Assembly (NCBI RefSeq): GCF_056712565.1
Contig: NZ_CM160072.1
DNA: 64,000 nt
Reading direction: 5' to 3' (one strand)
The notes under the pieces were generated by a model. The model did not search any database. It was given only the letters and a program-made list of their open reading frames with translations, and was not told where the DNA came from. Positions 1,398-49,764 of the stretch are shown piece after piece; position 1 is the first letter of the stretch; the number at the start of each line of letters is the position of its first letter. The position numbers were made by a program, and so were the translations under genes.

Positions 1398-2054
1398 TTA
1401 TTGCAATTGCACAAGAGTCAGTTCTCCCCCAAAGACAGCACCGGTATCAATATAATGCAGGTTGCCAATATCCACGCGATGGCGCAAAGGTGTATGACCA
1501 AACCAGAAATGATCAGCACCTGCAATTCCCTGCCCTTTTTGGCGTTCACCTAATCGCGAGCGGCTCCACAAGACCTGATGCAAATCGACGTCCTTTTGCC
1601 ATTCATAGACATCATCTGGATAATCGGCATGAGCAATAACATGTTTGCCGGTGCGACTGTGTAATTCAAGAATAAAGGGCAAATGCTGACATTTTTCCAG
1701 CGCCGTTTTCGCTTGTTTCTGGTGATTATCTGCCAGCGCAATAAACCAGTCGCCGCCATTTATCAACCATAAAGACATCTGCCGGGATGCCAGCGCATCC
1801 ATCGCCATCTGTTCATGATTGCCTCTTACCGCACGAACCCAATGTTGTTCCAGTAACTGCAGGCAACGTAAACTTTGCGGCCCACGATCGATAACGTCTC
1901 CCACTGAGATAAGTAAATCTCGCCACGGATCAAAACGACAATGCCATAATTTGCGGCGCAACTGCTCAAGACAACCGTGTATATCGCCTGAAAGCCAGAT
2001 ATGTCGCCATTGATGACCCGCAATTCTCTGATAAACGGGCGCAGGCTGTTTCAT
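1398..2054 (-). CDS. pphA: Serine/threonine protein phosphatase 1 (PphA/PrpA)
   Basis: Metallophosphatase motifs GDIHG, GDVIDRG and GNHE in the translation; start taken at second Met (218 aa). Stop abuts yebW stop. Confidence 0.92.
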   Translation of the reverse strand: MKQPAPVYQRIAGHQWRHIWLSGDIHGCLEQLRRKLWHCRFDPWRDLLISVGDVIDRGPQSLRCLQLLEQHWVRAVRGNHEQMAMDALASRQMSLWLINGGDWFIALADNHQKQAKTALEKCQHLPFILELHSRTGKHVIAHADYPDDVYEWQKDVDLHQVLWSRSRLGERQKGQGIAGADHFWFGHTPLRHRVDIGNLHYIDTGAVFGGELTLVQLQ

Positions 2055-2129
2055 CAATATTTTCCTCCCGCGCTAAAGATCACATAATCTTAACAAGAAT
2101 GTTAAAAAACGCTGGACTCAGACAGTAGA

Positions 2130-2419
2130 GTGTGTGTTATGGTTGACTATAAAGTCAGCGAAGGGAATGCTTCTGGCTTTTAACAGATAAAAAGAGACCG
2201 AACACGATTCCTGTATTCGGTCCAGGGAAATGGCTCTTGGGAGAGAGCCGTGCGCTAAAAGTTGGCATTAATGCAGGCTTAGTTGCCTTGCTCTTTAAGA
2301 ATAGATGACGACGCCAGGTTTTCCAGTTTGCGTGCAAAATGGTCAATAAAAAGCGTGGTGGTCATCAGCTTAAATGTTAAAAACCGCCCGTTCTGGTGAA
2401 AGAACTGAGGCGGTTTTTT
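2130..2419 (+). ncRNA. ryeA: RyeA (SraC) small RNA, antisense partner of SdsR; 5' end approximate
   Basis: Plus-strand transcript fully antisense to SdsR and ending at the hairpin plus T-run at 2384-2419. The 5' end is not resolved from sequence. Confidence 0.35.
2188..2291 (-). ncRNA. sdsR: SdsR (RyeB) sigma-S dependent small RNA
   Basis: Minus strand reads GCAAGGCAACUAAGCCUGCAUUAAUGCC...GUGUUCGGUCUCUUUUU, matching SdsR as recalled. Terminator hairpin at the 3' end; upstream -10 TATTCT with C at -13 (2298-2304). Confidence 0.85.
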
Positions 2420-2420
2420 A
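2377..2420. terminator. Bidirectional intrinsic terminator (RyeA 3' end and yebY)
   Basis: Stem CCGCC...GGCGG with inner GTTCT/AGAAC pairing, flanked by an A-run and a T-run. Confidence 0.75.
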
Positions 2421-2448: not shown

Positions 2449-2790
2449 TTAACAGAGTTTTTCAGCTCGCTCTATAAACGGTGCCAGACTCATTTTTTCG
2501 CCGGGATTGTTAGGATCATCAATCTGAATCACCGAAATGGGTTGGGCTTTAGTCTTCCCACTGGCAACTTCCTTTTGTGCGATATCGTTTAAAGGATACT
2601 GCACGAGGGTACTTGGGTTAATGACATACAAAGCATTACCCGGTCGGCAAGTCAACATCACCTCTTCGCGATTAAACGCCCATTTGTCTTTACCCACTTC
2701 AAAACGGCTGACGGTAATCACCTGCGGTGCCGCCAGCGCAGCTGCAGAACTGGTGAGTAACAGAAACGCCAGAATACTTTTTCTCATCAT
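2449..2790 (-). CDS. yebY: DUF2511 family periplasmic protein YebY
   Basis: 113-aa ORF with N-terminal signal peptide ([11 protein letters not shown]), matches YebY. Confidence 0.9.
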
Positions 2791-4191: not shown

Positions 4192-4422
4192 ATGCTGAAG
4201 AATCTGGCTAAACTGGATCAAACAGAAATGGATAAAGTGAATGTCGATTTGGCGGCGGCAGGGGTGGCATTTAAAGAACGCTACAATATGCCGGTGATCG
4301 CTGAAGCGGTTGAACGTGAACAGCCTGAACATTTGCGCAGCTGGTTTCGCGAGCGGCTTATCGCCCACCGTTTGGCTTCGGTCAATCTGTCACGTTTACC
4401 TTACGAGCCCAAACTTAAATAA
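4192..4422 (+). CDS. holE: DNA polymerase III theta subunit
   Basis: 76-aa product [32 protein letters not shown]...; ATG 4192 preceded by GAGGAG. Track ORF starts further upstream at 4105. Confidence 0.9.
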
Positions 4423-4523
4423 AACTTATACATAGTTACACTTTCTTACATAACGCCTGCTAAATTATGAGTATTTTCTAAACCGCACCCATAATTTGCA
4501 GTCATTTTGAAAAGGAAGTCATT

Positions 4524-5180
4524 ATGTCGTTCTGGAAAGTTGCAGCAGCGCAATATGAGCCCCGTAAAACCTCACTCACCGAACAGGTAGCTCATCATCT
4601 GGAGTTTGTGAGGGCCGCCGCCAGGCAACAATGTCAGCTGTTAGTTTTTCCATCGCTTTCTTTACTGGGGTGTGATTATTCGCGACGTGCCCTTCCTGCC
4701 CCACCCGATCTCTCGCTATTAGACCCGCTTTGTTATGCCGCAACGACCTGGCGAATGACCATCATTGCCGGCCTTCCCGTTGAATATAACGATCGCTTTA
4801 TTCGTGGAATTGCGGTATTCGCACCGTGGCGAAAAACGCCAGGGATCTACCATCAGAGTTATGGTGCATGTCTGGGCCGTCGTTCCAGAACCATCACGGT
4901 GGTCGATGAACAACCGCAAGGTATGGATATGGACCCGACCTGTTCACTGTTTACGACAGGGCAATGTCTGGGAGAACCCGACCTGCTGGCGTCGGCCCGT
5001 CGCTTACAATTTTTTTCACATCAGTACTCGATTGCAGTGCTGATGGCAAATGCCCGTGGTAACAGTGCACTATGGGATGAACATGGTCGTCTCATCGTTC
5101 GCGCCGATCGTGGTTCATTATTGTTAGTCGGTCAGCGTTCATCACAGGGTTGGCAAGGCGATATCATTCCATTACGCTAG
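4524..5180 (+). CDS. yobB: Carbon-nitrogen hydrolase family protein YobB
   Basis: 218-aa ORF matching YobB as recalled. Confidence 0.85.
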   Translation: MSFWKVAAAQYEPRKTSLTEQVAHHLEFVRAAARQQCQLLVFPSLSLLGCDYSRRALPAPPDLSLLDPLCYAATTWRMTIIAGLPVEYNDRFIRGIAVFAPWRKTPGIYHQSYGACLGRRSRTITVVDEQPQGMDMDPTCSLFTTGQCLGEPDLLASARRLQFFSHQYSIAVLMANARGNSALWDEHGRLIVRADRGSLLLVGQRSSQGWQGDIIPLR

Positions 5181-5202
5181 GCTTTTCGGCCTGGAGCATG
5201 CC

Positions 5203-7949
<2,747 letters not shown>

Positions 7950-8130
7950 TTATAAGGGTGGCAAAACTCACCGGGGATGCAAGCGAAACAGGGTAGTCAT
8001 TGCTTAGATGATGACAGGTAATGGCGCGGATATCGACTGTTATGCAGACAGAGAAAATCAGCCTGTTCAAATGGCTGTGCGGTTCTGGATAACCCGAAAT
8101 AGTCAACTTCAGGCTATCCAGAGAGCGGAA

Positions 8131-33457: not shown

Positions 33458-33556
33458 GCCGGATGCGGCGTGAACGCCTTATCCGGCCTACAAAGTCTTG
33501 CTAATTCAATATATTGCAGGGGCTATGTAGGCCTGATAAGCATAGCGCATCAGGCA
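33458..33556. repeat. Pair of REP elements downstream of cmoB
   Basis: TGCCGGATGCGGCGTGAACGCCTTATCCGGCCTACA and GTAGGCCTGATAAGCATAGCGCATCAGGCA. Confidence 0.8.
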
Positions 33557-37469: not shown

Positions 37470-37502
37470 AAAAAAAGGCCCCTGTTGAAATTGCAGGGGC
37501 CT
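37470..37502 (-). terminator. Intrinsic terminator downstream of cutC
   Basis: Minus strand AGGCCCCTG...CAGGGGCCT followed by TTTTTTT. Confidence 0.8.
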
Positions 37503-37548
37503 GGTACGAGCAAGCATCATATTGGGCGACATGATGCAACGGTAAAAA

Positions 37549-38304
<756 letters not shown>

Positions 38305-49651: not shown

Positions 49652-49678
49652 TTATCGGCAAGGAGGGGGGAAACTTTA
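49652..49678 (-). promoter_or_regulatory. Sigma-28 (FliA) class 3 promoter of the tar-cheRBYZ operon
   Basis: Minus strand TAAAGTTT-N11-GCCGATAA, a perfect match to the sigma-28 consensus, about 30 bp upstream of the tar start. Confidence 0.88.
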
Positions 49679-49708
49679 TTGCTGATGCCACCCGCCGCGA
49701 AATTGAAA

Positions 49709-49738
49709 TAAAAAACCCGATGCGCAGATCATCGGGTT
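49709..49738 (-). terminator. Intrinsic terminator downstream of cheW
   Basis: Minus strand ACCCGATGATCTGCGCATCGGGT followed by TTTTTT. Confidence 0.8.
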
Positions 49739-49764
49739 CATTTCAATTGAGGAAATCGGGAGAA

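What the first reader, a model, noticed from the sequence alone, without database searches (positions are those of the whole stretch)
2130..2420. SdsR/RyeA antisense sRNA pair between pphA and yebY
Seen in sequence: the minus strand at 2188-2291 matches SdsR (RyeB) as I recall it, with a sigma-S style -10 (TATTCT, C at -13) and an intrinsic terminator. The plus strand over the same bases would be RyeA, ending at a bidirectional terminator (2377-2420) shared with yebY. The track lists a 63-aa ORF (2155..2346) here, but the locus is best read as non-coding. Established knowledge: RyeA and SdsR form a fully overlapping pair. The RyeA 5' end is not determinable from sequence alone.
Basis: partly seen in the sequence, partly recalled or inferred. 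Interest (0 to 1): 0.4.

Follow-up and report, generated by a model that had tools for sequence, protein, structure and literature searches.

The report
Known SdsR/RyeA antisense sRNA pair

Summary
The finding is confirmed and already known. Rfam matches SdsR_RyeB at 2288→2189 (−) with 114 bits (threshold 38) and SraC_RyeA at 2185–2329 (+) with 176 bits (threshold 37). The window differs from E. coli K-12 by 4 SNPs and one T, and none of these changes mature SdsR.

Mapped K-12 ends transfer as follows:
- **SdsR:** 2291→2190.
- **sdsR promoter:** −10 TATTCT (2303→2298), −13C (2304), −35 TGGAAA (2325→2320).
- **RyeA:** 2151→~2419, with −10 TATGGT at 2138–2143.
- **RyeA 3′ end:** a two-way hairpin at 2379–2418, 30 nt past the yebY stop.

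Across 102 Enterobacterales sequences SdsR is 92–94% conserved, and the −13C, −12T, −11A and −7T promoter positions never vary. RyeA-only segments are at background (34–39%). The 63-aa ORF is not conserved and matches no protein family, so the locus is non-coding.

Corrections: the RyeA 5′ end is known experimentally, and the Rfam RyeA hit mirrors SdsR, so it is not independent evidence.

Side observation: the sdsR 3′ end is a phage attachment site, occupied in 227 of 5,426 E. coli genomes. The ryeA promoter lies in a decayed integrase 3′ end (2081–2144).

The parts
2190..2291 (-). SdsR (RyeB) sRNA, about 102 nt. Start G at 2291, 3' ends at 2192-2190. Hairpin 1 at 2291-2273, single-stranded AUUAAUGCCAACUUUUAGCGCAC, hairpin 2 at 2249-2232, then the terminator hairpin.
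   Evidence: RF00111 at 114.4 bits. Identical to K-12 over 2189-2291. Ends from primer extension and RACE in K-12. MFE -34.8 kcal/mol, z = -4.67. 92-94% conserved across 102 sequences.
2298..2325 (-). sdsR sigma-S-type promoter: -35 TGGAAA (2325->2320), 16-bp spacer, -14T, -13C (2304), -10 TATTCT (2303->2298), -8C, A/T-rich discriminator.
   Evidence: The -10 hexamer is the one changed to CTCGAG in the sdsR promoter mutant. RpoS dependence and -13C mutagenesis in Salmonella. E-sigma-S alone transcribes sdsR in vitro. -13C, -12T, -11A, -7T and the TGG of the -35 box are invariant in 102 of 102 sequences; spacer is 16 bp in all 98 sequences where the motif search matched.
2190..2223 (-). SdsR intrinsic terminator: 11-bp stem 2223->2195 followed by CUUUUU. 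It is leaky, and read-through gives the sdsR-pphA mRNA.
   Evidence: Terminator scan. Fold -15.8 kcal/mol, z = -3.7. 99.7% of cells paired, with both-side changes at 4 of 11 pairs. Read-through to pphA shown in K-12.
2135..2143 (+). ryeA sigma-70 promoter core: -10 TATGGT (2138-2143), preceded by TG at 2135-2136 (extended -10 shape, my inference).
   Evidence: Primer RyeA-p3 replaces TATGGT with CTCGAG and abolishes RyeA. E-sigma-70 alone makes RyeA in vitro. Window is identical to K-12 across 2040-2164.
2151..2419 (+). RyeA (SraC) antisense RNA, about 269 nt in this strain. It runs through the whole sdsR gene and its promoter. RyeA +40 to +141 is perfectly complementary to SdsR.
   Evidence: K-12 ryeA 1923066-1923337 maps to 2151-2421. 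5' end by primer extension and RACE; 3' ends at +261 to +270, i.e. window 2411-2419, Rho-independent in vitro. The construct coordinate sdsR +132 = ryeA +10 gives ryeA +1 = 2151. RF00101 at 176 bits over 2185-2329 only.
2379..2419 (.). Two-way intrinsic terminator hairpin: GC core 2384-2413, A-run 2379-2383, T-run 2414-2419. It ends RyeA on the + strand and is presumably the yebY terminator on the - strand, 30 nt after the yebY stop.
   Evidence: Folds on both strands at -20.0 and -19.8 kcal/mol, z = -4.2 and -5.2. RyeA 3' ends fall in the T-run. Stem, A-run and T-run are conserved with a variable loop in Enterobacteriaceae. The yebY direction is inferred.
2189..2211 (.). Phage or island attachment site (attB core, roughly the last 23 bp of sdsR). 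It is unoccupied in this window.
   Evidence: The literature places the PhiW104 att site in the last 23 bp of ryeB. In E. coli lysogens homology to the window starts at about 2188, next to an integrase. The junction is present in 227 of 5,426 genomes. The window has a single copy of the 23-mer.
2081..2144 (+). Decayed 3' end (about the last 21 codons, with one frameshift) of a tyrosine integrase gene. The ryeA promoter lies inside it: the -10 TATGGT corresponds to codons ..V-M-V of the integrase.
   Evidence: Local alignment to the last ~64 nt of intact integrases in L054, L059 and L071 gives z = 8.6, 6.2 and 6.6, with 0 of 300 shuffles as good. Window translation SHNLNKNVKK / LDSDSRVCVMV against GHKNLTMTKKYLDARGAEYVMV*. 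The intact ORF matches the PHROG integrase family at 8.6e-96.
2155..2346 (-). Mechanical 63-aa ORF (TTG start). Not a gene.
   Evidence: The start lies 55 nt upstream of the sdsR transcription start. The frame is closed 12-39 nt upstream of the SdsR core in most genera, and the C-terminal end varies from 66 to 393 nt. No NCBIfam match. No CDS in K-12 RefSeq or in the listed PGAP records.
1398..2054 (-). pphA (phosphoprotein phosphatase 1), the gene downstream of sdsR. It is expressed largely by read-through from the sdsR promoter.
   Evidence: K-12 annotation. Choi 2019. Adjacent to sdsR only in Escherichia and some Citrobacter.
2449..2790 (-). yebY, the conserved gene upstream of sdsR.
   Evidence: K-12 annotation. 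Found about 205-260 nt from the SdsR core in nearly all Enterobacterales loci. Fröhlich 2012 reports sdsR downstream of yebY in all cases examined.

Best explanation
The locus encodes two convergent, overlapping non-coding RNAs.

SdsR: RNA polymerase with sigma-S starts at G2291 on the minus strand. It makes the ~102-nt sRNA, which ends at its own intrinsic terminator. SdsR accumulates in stationary phase, binds Hfq, and represses trans-encoded mRNAs by base pairing. Reported targets are ompD in Salmonella, and tolC, yhcB and mutS in E. coli.

RyeA: sigma-70 polymerase starts at about 2151 on the plus strand. It makes the ~270-nt RNA, which crosses all of sdsR and its promoter. RyeA ends at the two-way hairpin beside yebY.

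The two RNAs restrain each other in two ways. First, the perfect ~102-bp RNA duplex is cut by RNase III, so each RNA destroys the other. [quoted passage not shown] That collision also lowers the sdsR-pphA read-through mRNA.

Shown here: sequence identity to the characterised K-12 locus, family membership, promoter and terminator anatomy, conservation and synteny.

Inferred by transfer from K-12 and Salmonella experiments: expression, sigma-factor dependence, targets and mutual degradation in this particular strain.
For: Both Rfam models match over their full length, far above the gathering scores. The region 2040-2460 differs from K-12 only at 2165, 2292, 2371 and by one T in the terminator tail. 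Mature SdsR and both -10 boxes are identical. K-12 RefSeq annotates ryeA and sdsR at this position.

Ends, sigma-factor specificity, Rho-independent termination, mutual degradation, transcriptional interference and pphA read-through were all shown in K-12. [quoted passage not shown]

Structure and conservation: SdsR z = -4.67. The terminator helix is 99.7% paired with compensatory changes. SdsR is 92-94% conserved and its promoter 75%. The core promoter positions are invariant. The locus is present in 5,425 of 5,426 complete E. coli genomes.
Against: There are no expression data for this strain. The window has A instead of G at -1 of the sdsR promoter (2292) and T6 instead of T7 in the RyeA terminator tail. 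Position -1 is naturally variable (A 17, G 50, T 35 of 102), so an effect is unlikely, but it was not tested.

The toxin-antitoxin label for the pair rests on overexpression work from one group. Fröhlich 2012 saw only a ~1.5-fold rise in SdsR when the sraC promoter was deleted. RyeA-only segments are not conserved.
Confidence: 0.95

Rival explanations
1. The 63-aa ORF (2155..2346, minus strand) is a real protein-coding gene, and the RNA-family matches are incidental.
For: The ORF exists with a TTG start. The part of the frame inside SdsR stays open in all homologues.
Against: The open frame inside SdsR is explained by near-invariance of the RNA sequence. The TTG lies 55 nt upstream of the mapped sdsR start, inside the promoter. 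Outside the Escherichia lineage an in-frame stop closes the frame 12-39 nt upstream of the core, including in Salmonella and Citrobacter. The C-terminal end varies from 66 to 393 nt. Variation in SdsR follows base pairing, not codon position. There is no NCBIfam match and no CDS in K-12 RefSeq or the PGAP records.
Confidence: 0.02
2. Only SdsR is a selected functional gene. RyeA is an evolutionary by-product: an outward-reading promoter left by an integrated element. It dampens SdsR in E. coli but is not a conserved partner or a true antitoxin.
For: RyeA-only segments and the promoter region are at background conservation, 34-39% against 92-94% for SdsR. The Rfam RyeA model merely mirrors SdsR. 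[quoted passage not shown] The ryeA promoter lies in an integrase fossil, and lysogens carry a different, phage-borne 5' region.
Against: In K-12, ryeA -10 mutants show earlier SdsR appearance, higher pphA and altered tolC and yhcB expression. The duplex is abundant in vivo. The T-run for the RyeA direction is kept in Enterobacteriaceae. This rival concerns evolutionary status, not the existence of the pair.
Confidence: 0.3
3. The hairpin at 2379-2418 is only the yebY terminator and RyeA does not really end there. On this view the older 249-nt or ~150-nt RyeA annotations reflect the true RNA.
For: Older annotation gives 249 nt. The Rfam model is 145 nt. A ~150-nt RNase III product is reported.
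Against: 3' RACE places RyeA ends at +261 to +270, inside the T-run. In vitro transcription gives a ~270-nt product. Current RefSeq annotates 272 nt. The shorter species are processing products.
Confidence: 0.04

Closest known systems
SdsR / RyeB (Rfam RF00111), the RpoS-dependent Hfq-binding sRNA of enterobacteria
   Same: Full-length covariance-model match. Mature sequence identical to K-12. Same sigma-S promoter architecture, same terminator, and same position downstream of yebY.
   Different: Nothing of substance. There is one SNP at promoter position -1 (2292) relative to K-12.
SraC / RyeA (Rfam RF00101), the antisense partner of SdsR in E. coli K-12
   Same: Promoter -10 box, start region and terminator hairpin are identical or nearly identical to K-12. 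SdsR is fully contained within it.
   Different: Two SNPs inside RyeA (2165, 2371) and a T6 rather than T7 tail. It is the K-12-type short form, not the ~35-nt longer Salmonella/Shigella form.
PhiW104-type integration hot spot in the ryeA/ryeB locus of Salmonella (Balbontín et al. 2008, as cited in PMC7380047 and PMC3333887)
   Same: The same site (the sdsR 3' end) is used by prophages in 227 of 5,426 E. coli genomes. Integration replaces the RyeA 5' part.
   Different: The window's site is empty. It holds only an integrase 3' fossil, which now carries the ryeA promoter.
Type I toxin-antitoxin antisense pairs (e.g. Sib/Ibs) and other cis-antisense sRNA pairs
   Same: Fully complementary convergent transcripts, with duplex degradation that depends on RNase III.
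   Different: Here both partners are non-coding, and the 'toxin' is a trans-acting Hfq sRNA rather than a peptide mRNA. RyeA does not co-sediment with ProQ as the Sib antitoxins do.

Membership tests
SdsR_RyeB (RF00111) | Covariance-model score at or above the curated gathering threshold, over the full model | tested here: met
   114.4 bits against 38, model positions 1-100 of 100, E = 1.8e-21.
SdsR_RyeB (RF00111) | Three-hairpin structure ending in a Rho-independent terminator | tested here: met
   MFE -34.8 kcal/mol, z = -4.67. Terminator helix 99.7% paired, with 4 pairs changed on both sides. Hairpin 2 never varies, but the search pattern fixed it, so that is uninformative. Hairpin 1 is 74.5% paired on a partly misaligned MAFFT alignment, so that is inconclusive.
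SdsR_RyeB (RF00111) | Sigma-S-type promoter: -13C, -14T/G, -8C, 16-bp spacer | tested here: met
   All features are present at 2298-2325. -13C is found in 102 of 102 sequences. The spacer is 16 bp in all 98 sequences where the motif search matched. Criteria are from Fröhlich 2012.
SdsR_RyeB (RF00111) | Genomic position downstream of yebY | tested here: met
   The yebY stop is at 2449, 158 nt upstream of the sdsR start. The same arrangement holds in nearly all Enterobacterales loci and in the literature.
SdsR_RyeB (RF00111) | RpoS-dependent stationary-phase expression, Hfq binding and trans-repression of targets | not testable with these tools
   Transferred from K-12 and Salmonella experiments.
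SraC_RyeA (RF00101) | Covariance-model score at or above the gathering threshold | tested here: met
   176 bits against 37. The model mirrors SdsR plus its promoter and also scores opposite SdsR in Shewanella, so this is weak as independent evidence.
SraC_RyeA (RF00101) | Own sigma-70 promoter and start upstream of the sdsR 3' end, on the opposite strand | tested here: met
   Window 2040-2164 is identical to K-12. The -10 TATGGT is defined by mutagenesis and the start is mapped.
SraC_RyeA (RF00101) | Intrinsic terminator giving a ~270-nt RNA that fully contains the SdsR complement | tested here: met
   Hairpin at 2379-2418 plus U6. K-12 3' ends map to 2411-2419.
RNA-RNA toxin-antitoxin pair (SdsR toxin / RyeA antitoxin, Choi et al.) | Growth arrest or death on SdsR overproduction, rescued by RyeA | not testable with these tools
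   Reported for K-12 only. Effects at native expression levels are modest.
Protein-coding gene (63-aa ORF) | Reading frame and start codon conserved among relatives, with a family match | tested here: not met
   Frame broken in most genera. No NCBIfam hit. No annotated CDS.

The most novel reading that the evidence does not exclude
The ryeA promoter and the RyeA-specific 5' segment of E. coli are the fossil right end of an integrative element that once occupied the attachment site at the sdsR 3' end. That end consists of the last ~21 integrase codons plus the int-attR spacer. On this reading RyeA began as a mobile-element-borne anti-sRNA against SdsR and was later retained by the host. Present-day prophages that integrate here bring their own alternative RyeA 5' ends. 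This may already be noted in Balbontín et al. 2008, which I could not read.
Probability: 0.5. Interest if true: 0.3.

Novelty: already known. Interest (0 to 1): 0.1.

Why it matters
For the scan, it matters mainly as a correct call. A mechanical 63-aa ORF should not be annotated here, because the locus is a known sRNA pair with roles in stationary-phase envelope remodelling, TolC-dependent drug efflux and pphA expression.

Two practical lessons follow. First, an Rfam SraC_RyeA hit should not be counted as evidence independent of the SdsR hit. Second, the sdsR 3' end is a live prophage attachment site, occupied in about 4% of complete E. coli genomes. The RyeA half of the pair therefore varies between strains even though SdsR does not.

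Tried and rejected
- The sigma-70 consensus scan found neither the sdsR nor the ryeA promoter, and it missed the plus-strand terminator because of the interior mismatch and long stem. Both promoters were placed instead from published mutagenesis primers and mapped starts, and the terminator from folding.
- The global MAFFT conservation profile understated similarity in the RyeA 5' flank because of indels. A focused alignment of close relatives was needed.
- Covariation in SdsR hairpin 1 is inconclusive because loop-length variation misaligns it. Hairpin 2 invariance is an ascertainment artefact of my search pattern.
Conservation was recomputed without the fixed positions and is 92%.
- A literature search for yebY with 'bidirectional terminator' found nothing. 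A search for translation claims in RyeA found only incidental mentions.
- Balbontín 2008 (PMC2395037) is not held.
- I considered and rejected the idea that the Shewanella hits were chance: they pass the RF00111 gathering threshold.
- I considered whether the window carries a prophage at the att site. It does not, because the 23-mer occurs only once.

Full report
**Observation**

A scan of the whole window with Rfam at gathering thresholds gave five hits. Two lie in the finding. SdsR_RyeB (RF00111) matches 2288→2189 on the minus strand at 114.4 bits (threshold 38, model 1-100 of 100, E = 1.8e-21). SraC_RyeA (RF00101) matches 2185–2329 on the plus strand at 176 bits (threshold 37, model 1-145 of 145).

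The intergenic 391 bp is 100% identical to Nissle 1917, ATCC 11775 and other strains. It is present in 5,425 of 5,426 complete E. coli genomes.

**Transfer of mapped coordinates from K-12**

MG1655 RefSeq annotates ryeA at 1923066–1923337 (+, 272 nt) and sdsR at 1923104–1923207 (−, 104 nt) between pphA and yebY. A pairwise alignment shows four differences from K-12 over 2040–2460:

| Window position | Window | K-12 |
|---|---|---|
| 2165 | G | A |
| 2292 | T | C |
| 2371 | T | G |
| 2414–2419 | T6 | T7 |

Everything else is identical, including mature SdsR and both −10 boxes.

Choi et al. 2019 (PMC6610125) mapped the ends in K-12:
- The sdsR start is 1 nt inside the old annotation, which is window 2291.
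- SdsR 3′ ends are at +100 to +102, which is window 2192–2190.
- ryeA starts at three adjacent sites. The most downstream is the annotated one, window 2151. This is cross-checked by their construct coordinate, where sdsR +132 equals ryeA +10.
- RyeA 3′ ends are at +261 to +270, which is window 2411–2419. They arise by Rho-independent termination in vitro.

Their mutagenesis primers define the −10 boxes. TATGGT was changed to CTCGAG for ryeA (window 2138–2143). AGAATA on the plus strand, which is TATTCT on the minus strand, was changed for sdsR (window 2298–2303).

**Anatomy**

SdsR (2291→2190) folds into a 5′ hairpin, a single-stranded stretch, the GGCUCU/AGAGCC hairpin and an 11-bp terminator hairpin followed by CUUUUU. 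The MFE is −34.8 kcal/mol, z = −4.67, and 0 of 200 shuffles fold as well.

The hairpin at 2379–2418 folds equally well on both strands:
- Plus strand: −20.0 kcal/mol, followed by U6.
- Minus strand: −19.8 kcal/mol, followed by U5.

It begins 30 nt past the yebY stop codon. The plus-strand direction is experimentally supported for RyeA. The yebY direction is my inference from shape, position and conservation.

**Comparative evidence**

- yebY lies about 205–260 nt from the core, on the same side, in nearly all Enterobacterales.
- pphA is adjacent only in Escherichia and some Citrobacter.
- Both points match Fröhlich et al. 2012 (PMC3333887).

Identity to the window across 102 distinct Enterobacterales sequences:

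| Segment | Identity to window |
|---|---|
| SdsR, all positions | 93.5% |
| SdsR, without the 20 positions fixed by my pattern | 92% |
| sdsR promoter | 75% |
| RyeA-only 5′ segment | 34% |
| RyeA-only 3′ segment | 39% |

In the sdsR promoter, −13C, −12T, −11A, −7T and the TGG of the −35 box are invariant in 102 of 102 sequences. −8C is present in 99 of 102. The spacer is 16 bp in all 98 sequences where the motif search matched. These are the sigma-S selectivity features listed by Fröhlich 2012, who also showed RpoS dependence and sensitivity to −13 mutation.

The window's SNP at 2292 is position −1, which varies naturally (A 17, G 50, T 35).

The SdsR terminator helix is 99.7% paired, with both-side changes at 4 of 11 pairs. 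The covariation score exceeds all 500 shuffles and all slid controls. Hairpin 2 is uninformative because my pattern fixed it. Hairpin 1 is inconclusive because it is misaligned.

**Coding question**

The 63-aa ORF starts at a TTG 55 nt upstream of the sdsR start. In most genera, including Salmonella and Citrobacter, an in-frame stop lies 12–39 nt upstream of the SdsR core. The downstream end ranges from 66 to 393 nt.

The frame is open inside SdsR only because the RNA sequence is nearly invariant. No NCBIfam family matches this ORF or the 38-aa and 50-aa ORFs nearby. K-12 RefSeq and the listed PGAP records annotate no CDS here. The non-coding reading is supported.

**A caution on the RyeA model**

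RF00101 covers 2185–2329, which is the complement of SdsR plus the sdsR promoter. It also scores 47–65 bits on the strand opposite SdsR homologues in Shewanella and Paraglaciecola. The evidence that RyeA exists here therefore rests on three other things: identity to the K-12 promoter and terminator, K-12 experiments, and in vivo dsRNA capture, in which ryeA–ryeB was the top stationary-phase cluster.

**Mechanism**

Shown in K-12 or Salmonella and transferred here by sequence identity:
- sdsR is transcribed by sigma-S polymerase and ryeA by sigma-70 polymerase.
- The ~102-bp duplex leads to mutual, RNase III-assisted degradation.
- Convergent ryeA transcription interferes with the sdsR promoter.
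- It also reduces the sdsR–pphA read-through mRNA.
- SdsR represses ompD, tolC, yhcB and mutS.

The toxin–antitoxin label is one group's interpretation. Deleting the sraC promoter changed SdsR only about 1.5-fold in another study.

**Beyond the finding: the attachment site**

About 237 E. coli genomes have the locus split. In STEC strain 2015C-4498, a prophage carrying an integrase, excisionase, RalR and RecT abuts the sdsR 3′ end, and homology to the window starts at about 2188. This integrase→sdsR junction is present in 227 of 5,426 genomes. One strain has an IS1A inside sdsR.

This matches the published Salmonella hot spot, in which the last 23 bp of ryeB serve as the attachment site for phage ΦW104. 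The source is Balbontín 2008, cited; the paper itself is not held. The window has one copy of the 23-mer, so the site is empty.

**Beyond the finding: the integrase fossil**

31 of the 120 species-level loci have an integrase homologue ending 69–284 nt from the sdsR 3′ end. In loci with an intact integrase, the gene ends …GAGTATGTTATGGTTTAG, which encodes …KKYLDARGAEYVMV*.

Window 2081–2144 aligns with the last ~64 nt of these genes. The z-scores are 8.6, 6.2 and 6.6, with 0 of 300 shuffles as good. It translates, with one frameshift, to SHNLNKNVKK / LDSDSRVCVMV. The intact ORF matches the PHROG integrase family at 8.6e-96.

The mapped ryeA −10 box therefore sits in a decayed integrase 3′ end. 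I found no mention of this in the searchable literature, but it may be in the paper I could not read.

**Beyond the finding: distant homologues**

SdsR homologues in Shewanella and Paraglaciecola pass the RF00111 threshold at 62–87 bits. They share the central UAGCGCAC stretch, hairpin 2 and the terminator, but have a different 5′ third. In Shewanella they lie about 111–118 nt downstream of rsmF in four of five loci (594 nt in the fifth). rsmF is the same gene that sits 729–7,474 nt from the sdsR 3′ end in Enterobacteriaceae.

**Verdict**

The feature is already known and interest is low. The report adds exact element coordinates, the caveat about the Rfam RyeA model, and the mobile-element context.

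Noticed in passing
window 2081-2144 (+): A decayed 3' end of a tyrosine integrase gene lies between pphA and sdsR. It contains the mapped ryeA promoter: the -10 TATGGT corresponds to integrase codons V-M-V. It aligns with the last ~64 nt of intact integrases that abut sdsR in Silvania, Kluyvera and Enterobacter (z = 6-9). K-12 is identical here.
   Followed up: yes
window 2189-2211; L122 (NZ_CP027552.1) 4794-6100: The sdsR 3' end is an occupied prophage attachment site in 227 of 5,426 complete E. coli genomes (integrase, excisionase, RalR and RecT next to sdsR). The prophage supplies a different RyeA 5' region (TTGGTTGTGATATAAC...) and its own version of the last sdsR bases. The same sequence type sits upstream of sdsR in E. 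albertii, Salmonella arizonae and K. oxytoca. This is known for Salmonella (Balbontín 2008). The window's site is empty.
   Followed up: partly
L123 (NZ_CP065613.1, E. coli FDAARGOS_944) 4226-5000: An IS1A element is inserted inside sdsR, at about window position 2282, which should inactivate both SdsR and RyeA in that strain. copD (yebZ) next door is also annotated as a pseudogene there.
   Followed up: no
L015, L029, L074, L091, L117 (Shewanella); L103 (Paraglaciecola): SdsR homologues outside Enterobacterales pass the RF00111 threshold at 62-87 bits. They keep a CTACACT-type -10 box with -13C, the UAGCGCAC stretch, hairpin 2 and a compensated terminator, but their 5' third is different. In Shewanella the gene lies about 111-118 nt downstream of rsmF in four of five loci (594 nt in L015). 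No listed paper appears, from its title or abstract, to address SdsR in Shewanella; only one of the ten hits was opened.
   Followed up: partly
window 2185-2329 (+): Methodological point: the Rfam SraC_RyeA model is essentially the reverse complement of SdsR plus the sdsR promoter. It scores above threshold opposite any SdsR homologue, so RF00101 hits do not show that a RyeA transcript exists.
   Followed up: yes
window 37470-37777 (-), 49668-49745 (+), 33492-33534 (+): Other Rfam hits above the gathering score in the window: MicL (368 bits), C0465 (111.6 bits) and ES036/CssrF (43 bits, just above its 37.6 threshold).
   Followed up: no
L024 (Yersinia artesiana) 7976-8076; L119 (Izhakiella australiensis) 4835-4934: In these two genomes sdsR is not in the usual orientation or position relative to yebY and yebZ. 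In L024 yebY is on the other side and on the opposite strand. In L119 yebY is about 2.7 kb away and pphA is on the other side. This suggests local rearrangements at the locus.
   Followed up: no
L121 (NZ_SZPQ01000002.1, titled Martelella alba BGMRC 2031): A record named after an alphaproteobacterial genus carries a typical Enterobacterales sdsR-yebY-yebZ locus. Its SdsR resembles that of Acerihabitans. The organism name of this assembly is probably wrong or outdated.
   Followed up: no
window 2165, 2292, 2371, 2414-2419: Strain differences from K-12 inside the pair: G for A at RyeA +15, A for G (minus strand) at sdsR promoter position -1, T for G at RyeA +221, and T6 for T7 in the RyeA terminator tail. 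None changes mature SdsR.
   Followed up: partly
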